From assembly GCF_056746865.1 (NCBI RefSeq), contig NZ_CM163382.1: a stretch of DNA of 64,000 bases; one strand, 5' to 3'. The notes under the pieces were generated by a model, which had not been told where the DNA came from, did not search any database, and worked only from the letters and a program-made list of their open reading frames with translations. Both the position numbers and the translations under genes were made by a program. Positions 48,138 to 57,037 of the stretch are shown here, piece by piece. Position 1 is the first letter of the stretch, and each line of letters starts with the position of its first letter.

Positions 48138-50534
48138 ATGCACGAAAAGAACATCGCCCTGCTTTGTGATGAAGCCGACCGACTTTTGCAACTGAACATT
48201 AATCTGCTCCGGCAAATGGTTGAGGAGCCAGATGTGTTATCTGACAGTAAGAACGAAAACAGACTGCTTTTTGATAAACAGAAAGCACTGAAAAGAATTG
48301 AGGAGCTGGAGGGCGAACAAATCAAAACCGCCCGCAGGGAGATGGTGCTGGCTGTTGTCGGCACGATGAAAGCAGGCAAATCAACCACCATCAACGCCAT
48401 TGTGGGGCAGGAAATTCTGCCTAACCGTAACCGCCCCATGACCTCTGTACCGACGCTCATCCGCCACGTTCCCGGAAAAACTGAGCCGGTTCTCCATCTG
48501 GAACATATTCAGCCTGTCCGCAATTTATTAATCACACTGCAGGAAAAACTCGCCACCCCGGCAGGACAGCAGGTCGCACAGACCCTGCAGCAAACCGGGG
48601 ATACCCGCGAACTGCTGGATATTCTGACGGATGATGGCTGGCTCAAAAATGAATACCACGGGGAGGAGGAAATCTTTACCGGACTGGCATCGTTAAACGA
48701 TCTGGTTCGTCTTGCTGCGGCAATGGGGACTGAATTTCCTTTTGATGAATACGCAGAAGTGCAGAAACTGCCGGTGATCGACGTGGAATTCAGCCATCTG
48801 GTGGGGATGGATGCATGCCAGGGAACACTCACACTGCTGGATACCCCCGGCCCTAATGAGGCCGGACAACCGCAGATGGAAGTGATGATGCGGGATCAAC
48901 TGCAGAAAGCCTCTGCGGTTCTGGCTGTGATGGATTACACCCAGATGAACTCAAAAGCGGATGAAGACGTCCGTAAAGAGCTTAATGCCATTGCTGACGT
49001 ATCAGCCGGCCGCCTGTTTGTACTGGTCAATAAATTTGATGAGAAAGACCGCAATGGCGATGGGGCAGATGCCGTACGCCAGAAAGTTCCGGCAATGCTG
49101 AACAGCGATGTGCTGCCCGCCTCCCGCGTTTATCCCGGATCCTCACGCCAGGCATACCTGGCTAACCGTGCGCTTCATGAGTTACGGAAAAACGGAACCC
49201 TTCCTGTTGATGAAGCCTGGGTCGATGATTTTATCAGAGGTGCCTTCGGTTGCATGAAAAAAGAATACGTCTGTAAAGACAGTGAACTGGCAACTGAAGG
49301 GGCGACAGACCTGTGGGAAGGCTCACTTATCGATCAACTGATAACGGAAGTCATACAGAGCTCACATTCCAGAGCTGCGGCACTGGCGGTTGACTCTGCC
49401 GCCGCAAAACTGATGCAGAATGCAGAAAATATCAGTGAATACCTGTTGTTACGCCATCAGGGGCTACAGCAAAGCATTCAGTCACTGCAGTCGCATATCA
49501 CCAGCCTGCTTGCGGATATCCGGGAAATCGCGGACTGTCAGGAGCAGATGACCACTGATGTCAGAATGGCCATGGAGGAGATCGATACTAAAACCCGGGA
49601 ATTACTGACGGGGGTCTGCACCTCACTGGAAGAGGAGCTGAATGACTATTTCAGAAGCGGTAAACGCAAAGAACAGCAAATGCTGGAGGAAGAAGACGCA
49701 GAACAACGAAGGTCTCAGTCCGGATTATGGGGGAAAATTTCTCAATGGTCCGGTATCAACAACCAGGGCCGGGAGGATTACAGGAAACGAGATTTTGCCC
49801 CGGACAGCCCCGAAATAAAATTCAGTGATCGCAGGGAAGCCCTTGAACTGATGACGCAAATCGAATCGACCGTGACCAGCCTGCACCGTGAGGCTGAAGC
49901 ACAGTTCCGGCCTGAGCTGGAGAAAATCGTCAGCGGGATTGAAACAGGTTTTCGTGGCACGGCCCTGTACGCCACAGAAAACATTGCCGGTCGCATCAAT
50001 GCCCGCCTGGAGGATGAGGGCTTTACCGTAAAAATCAGTTTTCCGGCAGTCAGCCAGTTACAGACCCGGCTCGCGGTAAAAATAAATCTGAGTGCGCTTA
50101 TGGAGGAAAGAACGGAGACCGTCACCCGTCGCCGTCGGCAGAGTGGCGTATGGGGAACCGTTTGTCGATGGTTTGGCACCAGTGACCTGGGCTGGGAAAA
50201 CTATGACGAGGATGTGAGTCGCAGCGTGATCAATATCAACAAGGTCAGAGAGGAAGTTATGTCACTGACCCGGGCATATTTCGGGGAGCTGCAGGCATCC
50301 ATTGAGCAGGATATTAACCAGCCCGTCCGCCAGGAAATCGATGCCTTTTTCTGCGCATTCAGGGAGAAAGTTGAACAACTGCGTAACACGCTGATTCAGA
50401 GCTCTGAAGATCATAAACGCGATCAGCAGGCGCAGGAACGGCTTACCGGGCGACTTCAGGCATTAAATGAAAGGGTTCCTGAGCTCATTACTGACAGTAA
50501 GGCGCTGAGGGAAGAGCTGGAGACAATGCTGTGA
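48138..50534 (+). CDS. Bacterial dynamin-like GTPase, CrfC/YjdA type (798 aa)
   Basis: GTPase motifs: G1 GTMKAGKST (res 75-83), G3 DTPG (235-238), G4 NKFD (298-301). The block EMVLAVVGTMKAGKSTTINAIVGQEILPNRNRPMTSVPTLIRHVPG closely resembles my recollection of E. coli CrfC. A long helical/coiled-coil C-terminal half follows. RBS AGGAAGG. Confidence 0.8.
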   Translation: MHEKNIALLCDEADRLLQLNINLLRQMVEEPDVLSDSKNENRLLFDKQKALKRIEELEGEQIKTARREMVLAVVGTMKAGKSTTINAIVGQEILPNRNRPMTSVPTLIRHVPGKTEPVLHLEHIQPVRNLLITLQEKLATPAGQQVAQTLQQTGDTRELLDILTDDGWLKNEYHGEEEIFTGLASLNDLVRLAAAMGTEFPFDEYAEVQKLPVIDVEFSHLVGMDACQGTLTLLDTPGPNEAGQPQMEVMMRDQLQKASAVLAVMDYTQMNSKADEDVRKELNAIADVSAGRLFVLVNKFDEKDRNGDGADAVRQKVPAMLNSDVLPASRVYPGSSRQAYLANRALHELRKNGTLPVDEAWVDDFIRGAFGCMKKEYVCKDSELATEGATDLWEGSLIDQLITEVIQSSHSRAAALAVDSAAAKLMQNAENISEYLLLRHQGLQQSIQSLQSHITSLLADIREIADCQEQMTTDVRMAMEEIDTKTRELLTGVCTSLEEELNDYFRSGKRKEQQMLEEEDAEQRRSQSGLWGKISQWSGINNQGREDYRKRDFAPDSPEIKFSDRREALELMTQIESTVTSLHREAEAQFRPELEKIVSGIETGFRGTALYATENIAGRINARLEDEGFTVKISFPAVSQLQTRLAVKINLSALMEERTETVTRRRRQSGVWGTVCRWFGTSDLGWENYDEDVSRSVININKVREEVMSLTRAYFGELQASIEQDINQPVRQEIDAFFCAFREKVEQLRNTLIQSSEDHKRDQQAQERLTGRLQALNERVPELITDSKALREELETML

Positions 50535-51436
50535 CTTCACCATTTATTCAACAAATTGCTGATAACCGGGTATGTCAGGTACTCACCTGTCTTCCTGAAA
50601 AATTTGTGGTTGATTTCGCAAACGGAATCGATGTTGCACAGGAGCATATCCGCACGGCCGGAGAGCGCACGTTCTTCCGGCGTTTAAAAGAGGGGCTGAC
50701 CGGCGAAGGCGCTGCACGGCAGAATGCCATCAATGCGTCGCTTGCACAGGGCGTTGAGGCGTCCCTGCGCTGGCTGACGGAGATGACAACGTCACTTGCC
50801 ACCACAAACTACGCGATTACCCGGGTAAACGACAGGGTCAGTTCACTGGTCAGTGATACAGCCAGGCTGGCGCATTATTCCGCAGATACGCGGGAGCAGT
50901 TACTCACCCTGGCCGATCAGGTTCACCATAAACTGAATCATCTTGAAGAAAAACTCCACCGTGTTGACCAGGTTCAGCGGGCGCAGTTACATCTTGAGCA
51001 GATATTCTCATGGTGGAGCGCCGGGCGATATGCGTCATTTTCCCCTGCCGGACGTTGTTATGTGGCACTTGAAGAGCTTCGCTGGGGCGCGTTTGGTGAT
51101 GTGATACGTCAGAGCGAAACAGGCCAGGTTAACCAGCTACTGGATATTCTCAGACATAAAGCATTAACGCAGATGGCACAGGAGAGTGGCGGTAGTGCAA
51201 CCGTGCGTCTGAACACTCTGGACTGGCTTGGTGGTCAGGGCCGGGAGCAGGCAGATAACGAGTGGCATGACGCGATTAACTGGCTGGGAGACTGGTGCAG
51301 TGAAGAGCAGCATCCGGTGATCTGGTCAACCACGCAGGCTGCAGAACACTTACCGGTTCGCATGCCTCGCCTCTGCTCTGCAGAACGCCTCTCTGAAAGT
51401 ATGGTCGATGAAATATTTCAGAAGGGGGCTGCATGA
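50531..51436 (+). CDS. Helical protein of unknown function, translationally coupled partner of the dynamin-like GTPase (301 aa); positional equivalent of yjcZ
   Basis: The GTG start overlaps the upstream stop (GTGA at 50531-50534). No catalytic motif recognised. The coiled-coil-like stretch is LTLADQVHHKLNHLEEKLHRVDQVQRAQLHLEQ. Confidence 0.6.
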   Translation: MTSPFIQQIADNRVCQVLTCLPEKFVVDFANGIDVAQEHIRTAGERTFFRRLKEGLTGEGAARQNAINASLAQGVEASLRWLTEMTTSLATTNYAITRVNDRVSSLVSDTARLAHYSADTREQLLTLADQVHHKLNHLEEKLHRVDQVQRAQLHLEQIFSWWSAGRYASFSPAGRCYVALEELRWGAFGDVIRQSETGQVNQLLDILRHKALTQMAQESGGSATVRLNTLDWLGGQGREQADNEWHDAINWLGDWCSEEQHPVIWSTTQAAEHLPVRMPRLCSAERLSESMVDEIFQKGAA

Positions 51437-52503
51437 GTACAGAAATGAAAACGGGGCTGGTGCTGTCCGGTGGCGGGGCGGTGGGCGCTTATCAGGCGGG
51501 AGTGGTTAAGGCACTGGCAGAGTGTGGTACACAGATCAGCATGGTTTCAGGGGCCAGCATTGGCGCATTCAATGGTGCCATTATCGCGGCCTCTCCCGAT
51601 CTGTCAGAAGCTGCCGTACGCCTGGAGGCGCTCTGGGATCATCTGGGGAATAATCAGGTGCTGTCGGTAAACAGATTGGTTTACTTTTCATTGCTGAAAA
51701 AATTGTTCCAGGCAATGAACCTCTGCCAGATCCCCGGACGTGCAGGAGCACTGCTTACGACGCTTCTTCGCCATATATCGACAATCAACGGGTTTGACAA
51801 TCTGATGGCTCAGCCGTTGTTGTCAGATGAGCCCCTGACAGCGCTGATGGATCATTATCTTGATACTGATGCTCTGGCAGACGGGCTACCGCTGTATGTG
51901 TCGCTGTACCCCACAGAAGGGGGCATGCAGGATATTATTGACTGCATTCGTGCTGAACTGGGTGTCGGAACCACGAAAAACGCCGTTTTTCAGCATATCC
52001 AGAGCCTGCCCCGCGGACAGCAGAAAGAGGCTCTGCTTGCGTCAGCCGCGCTGCCCCTGCTGTTCCGTCCCCGTGAGGTTCAGGGGACAATGTTCGGTGA
52101 TGGTGGTATGGGAGGATGGCGAAATATGCAGGGAAATACCCCTGTGACGCCTCTGGTCGATGCCGGATGCAATATGGTGATTGTGACGCATCTGAGTGAG
52201 GGTTCTTTATGGGATCGCCAGGCTTTTCCGGACACCACAATCCTTGAGATCCGTCCCCGGAAAAGGCTGAAATATGCAGGTGATGGTGGCAACAGCGGCG
52301 GTCTGCTCAGTTTTACATCGGCACATACCGACGCCTGGCGTCAGCAGGGCTATGAAGACACGATGCTGGCGATGGAGCATATCCGGAAACCGCTGGCAGC
52401 ACGTCAGGCACTGACCCGGTCAGAGGCGGTATTGCAGAAAAGCCTGGATATAACGGAAGAGGCAGATTTGGCACTGAGAAACGCGATGGCCCGGATTAAA
52501 TAA
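51433..52503 (+). CDS. Patatin-like phospholipase (356 aa)
   Basis: The ATG overlaps the upstream stop (ATGA at 51433-51436). Motifs: oxyanion GGGAVG (13-18), nucleophile elbow G-A-S42-I-G, catalytic D223-G-G. Confidence 0.85.
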   Translation: MSTEMKTGLVLSGGGAVGAYQAGVVKALAECGTQISMVSGASIGAFNGAIIAASPDLSEAAVRLEALWDHLGNNQVLSVNRLVYFSLLKKLFQAMNLCQIPGRAGALLTTLLRHISTINGFDNLMAQPLLSDEPLTALMDHYLDTDALADGLPLYVSLYPTEGGMQDIIDCIRAELGVGTTKNAVFQHIQSLPRGQQKEALLASAALPLLFRPREVQGTMFGDGGMGGWRNMQGNTPVTPLVDAGCNMVIVTHLSEGSLWDRQAFPDTTILEIRPRKRLKYAGDGGNSGGLLSFTSAHTDAWRQQGYEDTMLAMEHIRKPLAARQALTRSEAVLQKSLDITEEADLALRNAMARIK

Positions 52504-52519
52504 AGACGCCCCAAAGAAA

Positions 52520-52545
52520 CGCCACCGCCTGTGGTGGTGTTTTTC
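52520..52545 (+). terminator. Rho-independent terminator of the three-gene operon
   Basis: CGCCACC (52520-52526) pairs with GGTGGTG (52633 is not used; pairing partner is 52533-52539), loop GCCTGT, followed by T5. Confidence 0.7.
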
Positions 52546-52833
52546 CTGTCTGGTGTTATTGAAAATATTTTCATATATATATTACCTGAGAGAAAGTTTT
52601 ACCCCTCACCTGTCAATTCACTCACTGGAAATTTAATTATGAAATTACCTGTAAAGTTATTAATGAGCCTTATATCTCTGGTCAGCGTTATTGCACGTGC
52701 CGGGGAATATAAAAATTACAGCCGGGATGAAATAAAATACTGGCGATATACATCATACAAGGGGGGGAAACTTCCGGAAGGTTTCACTGATGAGAAATTT
52801 TCCAGCGCCATTTACAACGGAAGAATATTTACA

Positions 52834-53322
52834 ATGAAACGTTTACATACCCTTATGTTATTTCTGGCGGTTCTGTTCACGGGCTTTAACTTTAACGCAG
52901 AAGCGGCTACCGTAAAACAAGCTCTTAGTTGTAACCCGGAAGCCTGGGCTGAACAACCTGGAGCGTGTCCATCAACGTACGAGTTGTACGAAGGTGACGC
53001 TACCTACAAAGCCGCTATCGACAAAGCATTAAAACCGGTCGGACTGAGCGGCATGTTCGGTAAAGGCGGCTATATGGATGGCCCTGGTGGAGGTATCACG
53101 CCAGTAAACATTAACGGTACAGTCTGGTTCCAGGGCGACGGTTGCAAAGCCAATACCTGCGGCTGGGACTTTATCGTAACACTCTATAACCCAAAAACCC
53201 ATGAAGTTGTTGGCTACCGTTACTTTGGTTTAGATGACCCGGCCTACCTGGTTTGGTTCGGTGAAATTGGCGTGCATGAATTCGCGTATCTGGTGAAAAA
53301 CTACGTAGCTGCGGTTAACTAA
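52834..53322 (+). CDS. Secreted Ivy-family-like protein (putative lysozyme inhibitor), 162 aa
   Basis: Signal peptide MKRLHTLMLFLAVLFTGFNFNAEA. The loop GCKANTCGWDFIVTLYNPKTHEVVG parallels the Ivy CKPHDCG loop and its following strands. The ORF is open upstream to 52531, so the start is uncertain. Confidence 0.5.
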   Translation: MKRLHTLMLFLAVLFTGFNFNAEAATVKQALSCNPEAWAEQPGACPSTYELYEGDATYKAAIDKALKPVGLSGMFGKGGYMDGPGGGITPVNINGTVWFQGDGCKANTCGWDFIVTLYNPKTHEVVGYRYFGLDDPAYLVWFGEIGVHEFAYLVKNYVAAVN

Positions 53323-53337
53323 TTTAAGGAGTCTATC

Positions 53338-53748
53338 ATGAAAACTTTTATCAAAACTTTACTCGTTGCTGTAACTATTCTGTTCTCTGTCTTCGCTACT
53401 GCGAAACAAGTAAAACTGCCAAATAACATCAAATACGTTAATACTACAGAAGCGTTTTCCTGTACCGAAATTGACGGTATGAATTGCCAGACAAAGAATC
53501 AGTTCAACTATAAAGATAACAGCTATGTTTTCGTGCTTGAACGTGGTGGTGCCTGGTGCTACGACTACACTGTCTCGGTAGTTAACCTGAAAACCGGGAA
53601 AGCACAAATGATTGAATACGGGGACAATCAACTGTGCTCAGGTAGCAACAAACCGTTCTTCGAAATCAAAAATGGCGTACCGACGGTAGGAGTCATCGAC
53701 ACATCCGGAAAACCTGTCGTTGTAGCCCAGGACAAACTTAAAATCTAA
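53338..53748 (+). CDS. Small secreted Cys-containing protein of unknown function, 136 aa
   Basis: Signal peptide MKTFIKTLLVAVTILFSVFATA. An RBS AAGGAG lies 6 nt upstream. The gene starts 15 nt after the previous stop. Confidence 0.6.
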   Translation: MKTFIKTLLVAVTILFSVFATAKQVKLPNNIKYVNTTEAFSCTEIDGMNCQTKNQFNYKDNSYVFVLERGGAWCYDYTVSVVNLKTGKAQMIEYGDNQLCSGSNKPFFEIKNGVPTVGVIDTSGKPVVVAQDKLKI

Positions 53749-53891
53749 GGAGTAAACCATGCGTTTCTCTGCACATTATTAATATCAAAGGTAAATACAG
53801 CCCCAGCCATTGTTACCGGAAAGCCGCTTAATGCGTGGCTCGCCAGTGAAAGGCCTCTCAGACAATAAACCTTATTCATTTCACCCGTCAG

Positions 53892-53923
53892 GCCGCGTCT
53901 TCTCCGGGAGACGCGGCTTTTTT
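53892..53923 (+). terminator. Rho-independent terminator
   Basis: GCCGCGTCT (53892-53900) pairs with AGACGCGGC (53909-53917), followed by T6. Confidence 0.75.
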
Positions 53924-53968
53924 CATTTATTGCACCAGTAAATCTTAACCACCGATAAGGAGCAAAGT

Positions 53969-54790
53969 ATGCGATTAGCAAGTCGTTTTGGTTATGCTGC
54001 AAACCAGATACGCCGTGACCGTCCGCTGACACATGAAGAACTGATACGCCATGTACCCAGTATTTTTGGGGAAGACCGGCACACCTCCCGCAGTGAACGG
54101 TATGCGTACATTCCCACCATTACCGTCCTGGAAAATCTGCAGCGGGAAGGCTTTCAGCCGTTCTTCGCCTGCCAGACCCGTGTGCGCGACCCGGGCCGCC
54201 GGGGATACACAAAACACATGCTGCGTCTGCGGCGGGCCGGAGAGATAAACGGAGAACATGTCCCTGAAATTATTCTGCTCAACTCTCATGACGGTACCTC
54301 CAGCTACCAGATGCTGCCGGGTTACTTCAGGTTCGTCTGCCAGAACGGGTGCGTCTGTGGCCAGTCTCTGGGGGAAGTGCGTGTTCCACACCGGGGAAAT
54401 GTAGTGGAGAAAGTTATCGAAGGGGCTTACGAGGTGGTGGGCGTGTTTGACCGGATAGAGGAGAAGCGTGATGCCATGCAGTCGCTGGTCCTGCCGCCAC
54501 CGGCACGCCAGGCGCTGGCACAGGCGGCACTGACTTACCGTTATGGTGACGAACATCAGCCCGTCACCACCGCCGACATTCTGACGCCGCGACGCCGGGA
54601 GGATTACGGTAAGGACCTGTGGAGCGCATATCAGACCATCCAGGAGAATATGCTGAAAGGCGGGATTTCCGGTCGCAGTGCAAAAGGAAAACGTATCCAT
54701 ACCCGGGCCATTCACAGCATTGATACCGACATTAAGCTCAATCGCGCATTGTGGGTGATGGCAGAAACGATGCTGGAGAGCCTGCGCTGA
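53969..54790 (+). CDS. DUF932-family protein (YfjQ/YkfF... island core), 273 aa
   Basis: MRLASRFGYAANQIRRDRPLTHEELIRHVPSIFGEDRHTSRSERYAYIPT... This is typical of the gene preceding the antirestriction gene in CP4-type islands. Confidence 0.8.
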   Translation: MRLASRFGYAANQIRRDRPLTHEELIRHVPSIFGEDRHTSRSERYAYIPTITVLENLQREGFQPFFACQTRVRDPGRRGYTKHMLRLRRAGEINGEHVPEIILLNSHDGTSSYQMLPGYFRFVCQNGCVCGQSLGEVRVPHRGNVVEKVIEGAYEVVGVFDRIEEKRDAMQSLVLPPPARQALAQAALTYRYGDEHQPVTTADILTPRRREDYGKDLWSAYQTIQENMLKGGISGRSAKGKRIHTRAIHSIDTDIKLNRALWVMAETMLESLR

Positions 54791-56663: not shown

Positions 56664-57037
56664 ATGAAAACATTACCTGTATTACCCGGGCAGGCGGCCA
56701 GTTCTCGCCCGTCTCCTGTTGAAATCTGGCAGATACTGCTGTCCCGACTGCTGGACCAGCACTATGGCCTCACACTGAATGACACACCTTTTGCCGATGA
56801 ACGTGTGATTGAGCAGCATATTGAGGCAGGCATTTCACTGTGTGATGCGGTGAACTTTCTCGTGGAAAAATACGCGCTGGTGCTACCGACCAGCCGGGAT
56901 TCAGCGCCTGTACCCGCTCTCAGTTAATAAACAGCATCGATATCCTCCGGGCTCGCAGGGCGACCGGCCTGATGACCCGCGACAATTACAGAACGGTAAA
57001 TAACATTACCCTGGGTAAGTATCCGGAGGCGAAATGA
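56664..57037 (+). pseudogene. cbtA: CbtA (YeeV) toxin gene with a 1-bp deletion frameshift
   Basis: The first 73 codons read [73 protein letters not shown]. The frame is then lost near 56881 and a stop occurs at 56925-56927. The rest, ...INSIDILRARRATGLMTRDNYRTVNNITLGKYPEAK*, is readable in the -1 frame to 57037. The total length of 374 nt equals 125 codons minus 1 nt. Confidence 0.85.

What the first reader, a model, noticed from the sequence alone, without database searches (positions are those of the whole stretch)
52531..53923. Secreted Ivy-like putative lysozyme inhibitor and a second small secreted protein directly downstream of the patatin operon
What the sequence shows:
- A two-gene unit has matching RBS architecture: AAGGAG followed by ATG at 53338, and the same again at 53761.
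- Both products have classical signal peptides.
- The first product carries GCKANTCGWDFIVTLYNPKTHEVVG. This is laid out like the Ivy inhibitory loop CKPHDCG followed by beta strands. An upstream KAA...KGG pattern also aligns by eye with E. coli Ivy.

Oddities:
- The ORF is open for 101 codons upstream of the likely start (52834). That extension contains a second signal-peptide-like segment, MKLPVKLLMSLISLVSVIARA, from 52639. It may be a fused remnant of another small secreted gene.
- A third gene start with a good RBS at 53761 encodes only MRFSAHY* before the terminator. This suggests a truncated array of small periplasmic proteins.

Inference: these may be periplasmic inhibitors of lysozymes, lytic transglycosylases or phage endolysins. 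A functional link to the neighbouring operon is speculative.
Basis: partly seen in the sequence, partly recalled or inferred. Interest (0 to 1): 0.5.

Follow-up and report, generated by a model that had tools for sequence, protein, structure and literature searches.

The report
Divergent Ivy-like periplasmic protein cassette
Downstream of a patatin operon on an E. coli genomic island sits a decayed, phage-related cassette of small exported proteins; its first intact gene is a divergent relative of the lysozyme inhibitor Ivy that lacks Ivy's key histidine, and a 2024 preprint had already flagged this same gene as Ivy-like and reported that knocking it down lets phage T7 plaque.

Summary

- GeneA (52834-53322, 162 aa) is a real, selected gene (dN/dS 0.12-0.24) and a divergent Ivy-family member. 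Pfam and NCBIfam do not call it directly. However, its profile retrieves relatives of which 25 of 30 aligned sequences hit Pfam Ivy. It matches a PGAP-annotated 'Ivy family' plasmid protein at E=8e-11. The eight best PDB fold matches of its AlphaFold model are all Ivy.
- The disulfide loop is kept, but Ivy's His is Asn (CKANTC), so its target may differ from C-type lysozyme.
- GeneB (53338-53748, 136 aa) is an exported all-beta protein (phrog_8968) with jumbo-phage homologs and no assignable function.
- Both 'oddities' are gene relics. 52639-52833 is the 5' end of a 180-aa secreted-protein gene fused in frame by a ~714-bp deletion, and it shows no coding constraint. MRFSAHY* is the stub of a 129-aa gene.
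- The order 128-aa gene, A, B, C matches a contig collinear with a jumbo phage.
- Prior art: the PHAGEPACK preprint's 'Hypo_04657' is this locus. Its sgRNA matches 52703-52722 exactly, and knockdown made E. coli O121 permissive to T7.
- The biochemical target remains untested.

The parts
52523..52545 (+). Intrinsic-terminator-like hairpin plus T-run ending the dynamin/RdcB-like/patatin operon
   Evidence: stem 52523-52539 (7 pairs, 5 GC) followed by TTTTTCC. The region 52402-52586 is 96.8% identical to the same position in L003.
52639..52833 (+). Relic: the 5' 63-65 codons (signal peptide plus the start of the mature part) of a 180-aa secreted-protein gene, fused in frame to geneA. RefSeq annotates it as the N-terminus of a 227-aa protein
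   Evidence: 49% identity over 63 aa to the N-terminus of the intact 180-aa gene in L003, E=4e-18. No coding constraint: 0 synonymous versus 1-7 nonsynonymous differences between alleles. Diverged homologs of 160-161 aa start at the second Met.
52703..52722 (-). Target of the PHAGEPACK CRISPRi guide for 'hypo_04657' (spacer GCTGTAATTTTTATATTCCC; PAM CGG on the minus strand, 52700-52702 on plus = CCG)
   Evidence: sgRNA oligos in the preprint's supplement. Exact and unique match in the window.
52821..52826 (.). Deletion junction: about 714 bp present in L003 (5280-5993: the rest of the 180-aa gene plus a frameshifted phrog_9424 pseudogene) are missing here
   Evidence: blastn blocks: window 52766-52820 = L003 5225-5279, and window 52827-53307 = L003 5994-6468. 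Pseudogene detected by tblastn.
52834..53322 (+). geneA: divergent Ivy-family periplasmic protein, 162 aa. Predicted signal peptide covers residues 1-24 (AEA|AT). The mature part has 4 invariant Cys (C33, C45, C104, C109)
   Evidence: conserved start and Cys; fold; profile link to PF08816; alignment to K-12 Ivy; E=8e-11 to an annotated Ivy-family protein; dN/dS 0.12-0.24.
53143..53160 (+). Codons for the C-K-A-N-T-C loop, the counterpart of Ivy's inhibitory CKPHDC loop, with Asn in place of His
   Evidence: Searches align it to CKPHDC. tabulates the loop in relatives: the E. coli island subfamily has mostly N, with H in P0014/P0016 and D in P0006, while outgroup relatives mostly have H.
53326..53331 (+). 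Shine-Dalgarno AAGGAG of geneB, 6 nt before the ATG
   Evidence: Read directly.
53338..53748 (+). geneB: exported all-beta protein, 136 aa, 4 conserved Cys, phrog_8968, function unknown
53747..53782 (+). Relic: Shine-Dalgarno plus the first 7 codons (MRFSAHY*) of geneC, a 129-aa secreted protein (phrog_5248) that is intact in L006
   Evidence: Window homology to L006 runs through 53778 and then stops. L006 geneC starts MRFICALAFF. The same breakpoint is seen in L003, L009 and L010. PHROG assignment.
53890..53925 (+). Strong intrinsic-terminator-like hairpin (13 pairs, 8 GC) plus T-run, closing the cassette before the DUF932 gene (53969-54790)
   Evidence: Conserved in L003 (window 53838-54000 = L003 6720-6882, 93.9%).

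Best explanation
The region is the eroded remainder of a phage-related cassette of small Sec-exported, disulfide-bonded periplasmic proteins. It is carried as cargo of a CP4-44-type E. coli island. Two genes remain intact.

GeneA is translated from ATG 52834, not from the annotated 52639. It is exported and its signal peptide is cleaved. It folds like Ivy: N-terminal helices, a five-stranded antiparallel sheet, a C-terminal helix, and a Cys-x4-Cys disulfide loop protruding from the hairpin between strands 2 and 3. By analogy with Ivy, it most likely works by inserting that loop into the substrate cleft of an enzyme that cleaves the peptidoglycan glycan strand. The catalytic-site-binding His of Ivy is Asn here. 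The preferred target is therefore probably not vertebrate C-type lysozyme but another muramidase or lytic transglycosylase, bacterial or phage-borne.

GeneB is a co-transcribed exported beta-rich protein. It is translationally well signalled and its role is unknown.

The upstream 65 codons and the MRFSAHY stub are dead remnants of two neighbouring cassette genes.

Shown here: gene reality, export signals, Ivy homology and fold, loop substitution, relic status, cassette synteny with a jumbo phage, and identity with PHAGEPACK Hypo_04657.

Inferred: the translation start, periplasmic location, inhibitor mechanism and target class.
For: Homology and fold:
- the profile reaches proteins that pass Pfam Ivy.
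- E=8e-11 to a PGAP-annotated Ivy-family protein.
- hhalign to K-12 Ivy, E=4.3e-4 over 81 columns.
- AlphaFold model with pLDDT 71.7. The top 8 PDB hits are all Ivy (probability 1.00, TM normalised to target 0.56-0.67), and the next hit has E>1.

Loop. C104 and C109 are invariant. His is replaced by N, D or H within the subfamily.

Start codon and relic:
- the 160-161-aa homologs start at MKRLHTLM.
- the relic has Sd=0 and Nd=1-7, whereas the Ivy part has dN/dS 0.17-0.24 in the same alleles.
- homology of the relic to a 180-aa gene, and the deletion junction.
- Topology argument (inference): starting at 52639 would place a second hydrophobic segment before the Ivy domain and leave that domain in the cytoplasm. 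That is incompatible with purifying selection on a 4-Cys exported fold.

Cassette and phage link.

Expression and phenotype: the PHAGEPACK preprint (bioRxiv 10.1101/2024.04.20.590424) targeted 52703-52722 and reports T7 EOP of 1.0-1.5 versus 0 for the control in E. coli O121.

Mechanism of Ivy-type inhibitors: a loop between antiparallel strands is inserted into the lysozyme active site (PMC7677548 discussion).

Ivy proteins also inhibit lytic transglycosylases, weakly or strongly depending on the study (PMC10139938; PMC10746161).
Against: - GeneA itself fails the curated Ivy thresholds.
- The model confidence is only moderate and rests on 8 sequences.
- The His that, to my knowledge (Abergel et al. 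2007, not held in the library), is central to lysozyme binding is absent. The loop may no longer inhibit anything, and the protein could have another role; K-12 Ivy is also annotated as a periplasmic chaperone.
- No sigma-70-type promoter was found on the + strand upstream. The Shine-Dalgarno before ATG 52834 (GGAAG, 10 nt away) is weaker than in L003 or L006.
- The CRISPRi phenotype is polar on geneB and is not complemented. It is as large as loss of O-antigen genes, and unrelated guides (rclR, csgD, coaE) gave EOP of ~0.4-1.2, three or more orders of magnitude above the weakest knockdowns. It may not reflect geneA activity.
Confidence: 0.6

Rival explanations
1. Anti-phage barrier similar to superinfection exclusion. 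GeneA, alone or with geneB, sits in the periplasm and blocks the peptidoglycan-cleaving enzyme carried by incoming virions (for T7, the gp16 lytic transglycosylase), so the genome cannot enter. The cassette would have been taken from a jumbo phage that uses it to exclude competitors.
For: - The PHAGEPACK knockdown at 52703-52722 turns non-permissive O121 into a T7-permissive host.
- The cassette is collinear with a jumbo-phage region, and geneB and geneC belong to PHROG families.
- T4 Spackle is a precedent: a phage-encoded periplasmic inhibitor of a virion lysozyme (PMC7677548).
- T7 gp16 is a virion lytic transglycosylase (PMC5380687).
- Ivy proteins can inhibit lytic transglycosylases.
Against: - GeneA has no match in 50,697 phage records. 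In the sequenced Erwinia phage the geneA slot holds a non-Ivy paralog.
- There is no PADLOC match.
- To my knowledge, the gp16 transglycosylase activity is dispensable for T7 under standard plating conditions (Moak and Molineux 2000, cited but not read). Inhibiting it should not take EOP to 0.
- The phenotype equals that of O-antigen/ECA knockdowns and lacks complementation, so off-target effects or secondary rough mutants are not excluded.
Confidence: 0.25
2. A classical host-defence lysozyme inhibitor: a second Ivy that protects the cell against vertebrate C-type lysozyme when the outer membrane is breached.
For: Ivy homology, fold and a conserved disulfide loop. One allele class keeps His in the loop (CKAHAC in P0014/P0016). 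Ivy contributes to lysozyme tolerance (PMC2267010).
Against: The window allele and most alleles have Asn or Asp instead of His. E. coli already carries ivy as a chromosomal gene. The gene travels with phage-type genes rather than with virulence genes.
Confidence: 0.12
3. The annotated 227-aa fusion protein (52639-53322) is the real product: a membrane-anchored two-domain protein, as modelled in the preprint.
For: The frame is open. RefSeq calls it. It is retained in four diverged alleles. The preprint modelled a helical 'transmembrane' part plus an Ivy-like part.
Against: - The extension shows 7 of 7 nonsynonymous differences between the most different pair. The expected probability is about 0.003 if it evolved like the Ivy part and about 0.19 if neutral (my calculation from the sites).
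- The extension is the 5' end of a different gene, joined by a deletion.
- All more distant homologs lack it.
- The predicted topology would leave the Cys-rich domain in the cytoplasm (inference).
Confidence: 0.1
4. Functionless, decaying island cargo.
For: Two of the four cassette genes are already destroyed here. GeneB is deleted in the L003-type islands. IS elements and pseudogenes surround the locus.
Against: dN/dS is 0.12-0.31 for both intact genes over dS>1. The architecture is present in about 1,877 complete genomes. A knockdown phenotype has been reported.
Confidence: 0.05

Closest known systems
E. coli Ivy (YkfE, b0220; PDB 1GPQ, 1XS0) and Pfam PF08816 / NCBIfam NF007443
   Same: Exported protein of ~130 mature residues. 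Same fold by Foldseek (E 5e-3 to 4e-2, probability 1.00). Alignable over 81 columns, including the K-A-A helix, the K-G-G turn and the Cys-x4-Cys hairpin loop.
   Different: - About 20-26% identity, and below both curated thresholds.
- Loop is CKANTC instead of CKPHDC.
- An extra conserved N-terminal Cys pair (C33/C45).
- Encoded on a mobile island inside a phage-type cassette rather than as a core gene.
P. aeruginosa Ivyp1 (PA3902; PDB 1UUZ, 4PS6) and Ivyp2 (PA5481)
   Same: These are the best structural matches (1uuz_A E=2.2e-3; 4ps6 E=2.6e-3, TM normalised to target 0.65). Ivyp2 is a precedent for an Ivy paralog with a debated lysozyme activity and a proposed role against lytic transglycosylases.
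   Different: They are chromosomal Pseudomonas genes. The papers read here disagree on whether Ivyp2 inhibits lysozyme. I could not read the primary papers.
Plasmid-borne 'Ivy family c-type lysozyme inhibitor' WP_228706714.1 of Klebsiella (312 aa) and relatives P0088/P0090
   Same: These are the closest recognised Ivy-family members: 33% identity over 96% of geneA, E=8e-11. They sit in the same kind of cargo slot, next to a GTPase-family gene and a DUF905 gene. P0088 passes the Pfam Ivy cutoff.
   Different: They keep His or Asn in a C-E-A-H/N-N-C loop and carry a ~160-residue C-terminal extension that geneA lacks.
'Hypo_04657' of E. coli O121 in the PHAGEPACK preprint (bioRxiv 10.1101/2024.04.20.590424)
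   Same: It is the same locus. The sgRNA matches 52703-52722 exactly, the loop is the same CKANTC, and the preprint makes the same Ivy-like assignment.
   Different: The preprint treats the 227-aa annotation as a two-domain protein with a transmembrane part. Here that part is shown to be a gene relic plus geneA's own signal peptide. The guide is polar on geneB, which the preprint does not discuss.
T4 Spackle (superinfection exclusion)
   Same: A small, exported, disulfide-bonded, phage-encoded periplasmic protein that inhibits a virion peptidoglycan glycosidase. This is a possible functional analogue.
   Different: Spackle is an alpha-helical bundle that acts allosterically. It has an unrelated fold and mechanism. 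It is not a homolog.
phrog_8968 / phrog_5248 / phrog_9424 (jumbo-phage small secreted proteins)
   Same: GeneB is a full-length phrog_8968 member (E=2.6e-45). The geneC stub and the L003 pseudogene correspond to phrog_5248 and phrog_9424.
   Different: All three families have unknown function. GeneB shows no MliC/PliC-type or other specific fold match.

Membership tests
Ivy family (Pfam PF08816; NCBIfam NF007443) | Match to the curated family profile above its cutoff | tested here: not met
   Pfam: no hit at E<=1. NCBIfam NF007443: 11.6 bits, E=0.19, against a cutoff of 180.
Ivy family (Pfam PF08816; NCBIfam NF007443) | Statistically significant sequence relationship to recognised members | tested here: met
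   tblastn E=8e-11 to a PGAP-named Ivy-family protein. The family profile hits P0088 and P0092 at E about 1e-21 to 1e-20, and both pass the Pfam Ivy cutoff (22.9 and 22.0 bits against 21). 25 of 30 aligned sequences hit PF08816. hhalign to K-12 Ivy gives E=4.3e-4.
Ivy family (Pfam PF08816; NCBIfam NF007443) | Ivy fold: five-stranded antiparallel sheet flanked by helices | tested here: met
   AlphaFold model with H48-54, H56-69, five strands between 88 and 143, and H147-161. Foldseek PDB ranks 1-8 are all Ivy chains and rank 9 has E=1.2. Caveat: pLDDT is 71.7 and the alignment is shallow.
Ivy family (Pfam PF08816; NCBIfam NF007443) | Sec signal peptide / periplasmic location | tested here: inconclusive
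   A heuristic n/h/c-region check with an AEA|AT site is positive. No dedicated predictor or experiment was available.
Ivy family (Pfam PF08816; NCBIfam NF007443) | Disulfide-closed Cys-x4-Cys loop on the hairpin between strands | tested here: met
   C104 and C109 are invariant in the subfamily and at least 90% conserved in the wider alignment. They lie between E96-104 and E112-119 of the model. The disulfide itself is inferred.
Ivy family (Pfam PF08816; NCBIfam NF007443) | Canonical inhibitory loop CKPHDC with the active-site-binding His | tested here: not met
   The window allele has CKANTC. Other alleles have CKSNAC, CKSDAC, CKANAC and CKAHAC. This feature defines the lysozyme-inhibiting subgroup, not the fold family.
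Ivy family (Pfam PF08816; NCBIfam NF007443) | Inhibition of C-type lysozyme and/or lytic transglycosylase | not testable with these tools
   Requires purified protein and enzyme assays.
MliC/PliC, PliG, PliI lysozyme inhibitors (considered for geneB) | Family profile match or beta-barrel/sandwich fold match to solved inhibitors | tested here: not met
Known anti-phage defence systems (PADLOC-DB 2.0) | Match of geneA or geneB to any defence-protein model | tested here: not met
   No family at E<=0.01 for geneA, geneB, the 180-aa protein or geneC.
T4 Spackle-type superinfection exclusion | Spackle alpha-helical bundle fold / homology | tested here: not met
   The geneA model is alpha/beta and Ivy-like, and geneB is all-beta. 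Spackle is a helical bundle. Only a functional analogy remains possible.
phrog_8968 (geneB) | Full-length profile match | tested here: met
   E=2.6e-45, residues 1-131 on profile positions 1-133 of 135. tblastn finds homologs in 40 phage records.

The most novel reading that the evidence does not exclude
GeneA, possibly together with geneB, is a periplasmic anti-phage barrier of a kind not in current defence catalogues. In this reading, an Ivy-fold protein was captured from a jumbo-phage superinfection-exclusion cassette. It neutralises the peptidoglycan-cleaving enzymes of incoming virions and so contributes to the natural T7 resistance of wild E. coli such as O121.
Probability: 0.2. Interest if true: 0.75.

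Novelty: new member of a known kind. Interest (0 to 1): 0.45.

Why it matters
If the protein is an active inhibitor with a shifted target, it would extend the Ivy family from host-lysozyme and autolysin control to a mobile, phage-derived module present in about a third of complete E. coli genomes.

It would also give a concrete biochemical hypothesis for a striking but unexplained CRISPRi phenotype, in which T7 goes from no plaques to full plating on O121.

There are two practical points:
- The RefSeq model WP_000775500.1 (227 aa) probably starts 65 codons too early, so structure-based interpretation of a 'transmembrane domain' is misleading.
- Any knockdown at that site also silences geneB, so the published phenotype cannot yet be assigned to the Ivy-like gene.

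Tried and rejected
- Direct Pfam scan of geneA, the long form and the relic: no hits.
- PHROGs and PADLOC for geneA: nothing.
- tblastn of geneA against 50,697 phage records: no match, so a phage origin of geneA itself rests only on the metagenomic contig L006.
- Whether the phage gene in the geneA slot of pEa_SNUABM_29 is Ivy-like: it is not. It resembles the B/C type.
- Promoter search upstream of 52639 and 52834 on the + strand: no consensus site. Reading the sequence by eye gives only a TATATT at 52578-52583 without a good -35.
- An obligate functional link to the patatin operon was rejected, because the cassette occurs without it in L006 and a terminator intervenes.
- The primary Ivy papers (Clarke 2010, PMC2865275; Abergel 2007, PMC1847508) are not held. 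A search for 'His60' returned nothing relevant. Statements on the role of the loop His therefore rest on my own knowledge and on secondary citations.
- The third homolog search was left unused because it would not have added functional information.
Full report
**Setting.** The window region belongs to a CP4-44-type E. coli island. RefSeq records identical to the window over 52400-54000 annotate the following genes in order:
- a dynamin-family protein (window 48138-50534);
- an RdcB/YjcZ-family protein (50531-51436);
- a patatin-like phospholipase (51433-52503);
- two 'hypothetical proteins';
- a DUF932 protein (53969-54790);
- an antirestriction protein, yeeS, yeeT and cbeA/cbtA.

The island lies next to yeeA, sbmC and dacD. 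At least 80% of 52400-54000 is present in 1,877 of 5,426 complete E. coli genomes.

**Observation.**
- AAGGAG lies 6 nt before ATG 53338, and again 6 nt before the ATG at 53759-53761.
- The peptide GCKANTCGWDFIVTLYNPKTHEVVG is present.
- The frame is open for 101 codons upstream of ATG 52834.
- MKLPVKLLMSLISLVSVIARA starts at 52639.
- The MRFSAHY* mini-ORF is present (53759-53782).
- Terminator-like hairpins lie at 52523-52545 and 53890-53925.
- A heuristic check supports signal peptides in geneA, geneB and the upstream segment, and in every other cassette member examined. All of these have 2 or 4 Cys in the mature part.

**Which start codon, and what is the upstream extension?** Homologs fall into two length classes. 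The 223-227-aa forms are all at least 77% identical to the window. The 160-161-aa forms are 58-81% identical and begin exactly at MKRLHTLM, which is ATG 52834 in the window.
- In islands of the L003 type, an intact 180-aa secreted-protein gene follows patatin. Its first 63 residues are 49% identical to the window's extension (E=4e-18).
- blastn places the junction between window 52820 and 52827. About 714 bp of L003 (5280-5993) are missing. That stretch holds the rest of the 180-aa gene and a frameshifted copy of a 128-aa gene (phrog_9424).
- Between four long-form alleles, the 65-codon extension has 0 synonymous and 1-7 nonsynonymous differences. The Ivy part of the same alleles has dN/dS 0.17-0.24, with dS up to 1.17.
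- From the site counts, seven of seven nonsynonymous changes has a probability of about 0.003 if the extension evolved like the Ivy part, and about 0.19 if it evolved neutrally (my calculation).

The relic is nearly identical among alleles whose geneA parts differ by dS>1, which indicates recombination between island copies.

**The downstream stub.** The window is collinear with the metagenomic contig L006 from 52823 to 53778. That span covers geneA, geneB and the first 18 nt of a third gene. In L006 the third gene encodes a 129-aa secreted protein beginning MRFICALAFF (phrog_5248). The same breakpoint is seen in L003, L009 and L010, so the truncation is old.

**GeneA is an Ivy-family protein.** Direct curated-profile searches fail: Pfam gives no hit, and NCBIfam's Ivy model gives 11.6 bits against a cutoff of 180. 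Five independent lines nevertheless converge.
1. A profile of eight subfamily members, searched against 1.84 billion representative proteins, finds 57 proteins at E<=1e-3. When 27 full-length outgroup hits are aligned with three subfamily members, 25 of the 30 sequences match PF08816 (best E=7.6e-12). The two nearest outgroup hits (E=3.2e-21 and 4.2e-20) pass Pfam's gathering cutoff.
2. GeneA alone hits Klebsiella plasmid genes that PGAP names 'Ivy family c-type lysozyme inhibitor' (33% identity over 96% of the query, E=8e-11).
3. A PDB profile search places 1gpq and 1xs0 second and third, although not significantly (E about 1).
4. BLASTP gives E=0.001.
5. The AlphaFold model (pLDDT 71.7, pTM 0.68) has two N-terminal helices, five antiparallel strands and a C-terminal helix. 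Its eight best Foldseek matches among 350,542 PDB chains are all Ivy (1uuz, 4ps6, 1xs0, 1gpq; probability 1.00; TM normalised to target 0.56-0.67). Rank 9 has E=1.2.

**What differs from Ivy.**
- The loop Cys pair (C104/C109) is invariant, but the residue aligned with Ivy's His is Asn in the window (CKANTC).
- Across alleles that position is N, D or H: CKSNAC, CKSDAC, CKANAC and CKAHAC. Most outgroup relatives keep His in C-E/K/Q-x-H-x-C.
- A second Cys pair (C33/C45) is conserved.
- Ivy-type inhibitors insert a loop between antiparallel strands into the lysozyme active site (PMC7677548). To my knowledge the loop His makes the key contacts, but I could not read the primary papers.
- Ivy proteins have also been reported to inhibit lytic transglycosylases. 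One paper summarises P. aeruginosa Ivyp1 and Ivyp2 as inhibiting MltB. For E. coli Ivy against MltA/MltB the effect is weak (PMC10139938). The papers I read disagree on whether Ivyp2 inhibits lysozyme.

The loop change therefore argues for a shifted target rather than against an inhibitor mechanism, but this is inference.

**Origin of the cassette.** L006 is collinear with Erwinia jumbo phage pEa_SNUABM_29 over seven genes:

| L006 gene | Phage gene | Identity |
|---|---|---|
| 193 aa | 182 aa | 30% |
| 128 aa | 136 aa | 51% |
| B | 136 aa | 35% |
| C | 128 aa | 50% |
| 158 aa | 167 aa | 38% |
| 202 aa | 210 aa | 46% |
| 834 aa | 839 aa | 60% |

The E. coli islands carry the same order (128-aa pseudogene, A, B, C stub). 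In the sequenced phage, however, the slot between the 128-aa gene and B holds a non-Ivy paralog, and geneA has no match in the phage collection. The cassette is thus phage-related, and the Ivy-like gene is a variable occupant of it. The cassette occurs without the dynamin/patatin operon in L006, and geneB is deleted in L003-type islands. Linkage to patatin is therefore not obligate.

**Prior art.** The PHAGEPACK preprint (bioRxiv 10.1101/2024.04.20.590424) describes E. coli O121 'Hypo_04657'. It reports an Ivy-like domain (superposed on 1XS0) with a 'CKANTC' loop, plus a putative helical transmembrane part, and proposes that the protein inhibits phage lysozyme.
- The validation sgRNA (spacer GCTGTAATTTTTATATTCCC) is the exact reverse complement of window 52703-52722 and is unique in the window. 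A CGG PAM lies on the minus strand. It is the same locus.
- Reported T7 efficiency of plating after knockdown is 1.09, 1.5 and 1.0, relative to permissive BW25113. The O121 control gives 0.
- The guide sits in the relic, 112 bp upstream of geneA's conserved start. If the phenotype is on target, it implies transcription entering from upstream of 52703.
- The knockdown must be polar on both geneA and geneB.
- The 'transmembrane domain' in the preprint is the relic's signal peptide plus geneA's own signal peptide.
- The effect is as large as for wecA, galE and rfaH. Unrelated guides (rclR, csgD, coaE) also give EOP of about 0.4-1.2, at least three orders of magnitude above the weakest knockdowns. 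No complementation is reported in the text I read. I therefore treat the phenotype as a lead, not as proof.

**Mechanism.**
- Best supported (confidence about 0.6): geneA is an exported Ivy-fold protein that uses its disulfide loop to block a glycan-strand-cleaving enzyme, with specificity shifted away from C-type lysozyme. GeneB is a co-expressed periplasmic partner or an independent factor.
- The most interesting variant (about 0.2-0.25) is an exclusion function analogous to T4 Spackle, the phage-encoded periplasmic inhibitor of the gp5 tail lysozyme. It would act on virion enzymes such as the T7 gp16 lytic transglycosylase. Against this, to my knowledge the gp16 transglycosylase activity is not essential for plating under standard conditions, so it would not explain an EOP of 0.
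- A classical anti-host-lysozyme role, a genuine 227-aa membrane protein, and functionless cargo are each less likely, for the reasons given under rival explanations.

**Verdict.**
- The gene is a new, divergent member of a known family and fails the curated thresholds.
- Its Ivy-likeness has already been noted in a preprint, which lowers novelty.
- This analysis adds the corrected gene model, the relic and deletion map, the family-level proof of homology, the jumbo-phage synteny, and the point that the published knockdown cannot distinguish geneA from geneB.
- Interest is moderate (0.45). It would be high only if the anti-phage reading is confirmed.

Noticed in passing
window 48138-52503: Three translationally coupled genes: dynamin-family (798 aa), RdcB/YjcZ-family (301 aa) and patatin-like phospholipase (356 aa). 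The stop and start codons overlap at 50531-50534 and 51433-51436. PADLOC gives only weak hits: LeoBC (E=8.6e-5) for the dynamin and phospholipase 'Effector' (E=1e-4) for the patatin. It looks like an island-borne paralog of rdcA-rdcB joined to a lipase. Whether it is a defence or membrane-remodelling system was not examined. In strain 4/2-1 the RdcB-like gene carries an internal stop.
   Followed up: partly
L006 4598-5551 (metagenomic contig collinear with a jumbo phage): Two tandem genes carry precomputed Pfam YfjT (PF27224) hits. They encode 151- and 152-aa proteins with signal peptides and lie just upstream of the 128-aa gene, A, B, C cassette. My own hmmscan at E<=0.1 did not list YfjT for them. 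By its name, this family would link the cassette to the small secreted protein YfjT of the K-12 CP4-57 prophage (my knowledge).
   Followed up: no
L015 3998-4936 (Klebsiella sp. plasmid NZ_CP017451.1): A 312-aa 'Ivy family c-type lysozyme inhibitor' with a ~160-residue C-terminal extension, also seen in P0088, P0090 and P0129. It sits between WYL-domain/GTPase-family genes and a DUF905 gene, the same kind of cargo slot as in CP4-type islands. The C-terminal domain is uncharacterised.
   Followed up: no
window 52402-52833 versus 52834-53748: Mosaic divergence. The patatin 3' end, the intergenic region and the relic are nearly identical among island alleles (relic dS=0). GeneA and geneB of the same alleles differ by dS of 0.2-1.2 and 0.2-0.55, and different allele pairs are close in A and in B. 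This suggests frequent recombination or gene conversion between the multiple CP4-type islands of E. coli. For 52400-54000 there is a median of 2 and up to 15 matching places per genome.
   Followed up: partly
window 56664-56927: The gene downstream of cbeA is open for only 87 codons in the window. RefSeq marks cbtA as frameshifted in genomes whose match to the query (window 52400-54000) is 100% identical. The toxin of this type IV toxin-antitoxin pair therefore appears to be inactivated.
   Followed up: no
L003 6560-6700: In L003-type islands, where geneB is deleted, about 170 bp of unrelated sequence lie between the geneC stub and the terminator. This sequence is not in the window (blocks). 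Its origin was not determined.
   Followed up: no
PHAGEPACK supplement, Table S6: In the clonal validation, knockdowns of functionally unrelated genes (rclR, csgD, coaE, gspA_3) restore T7 plating on O121 to within a few-fold of the level seen for O-antigen/ECA genes and for hypo_04657. This raises the possibility of a common indirect cause, such as selection of rough variants. The possibility was not tested here.
   Followed up: no
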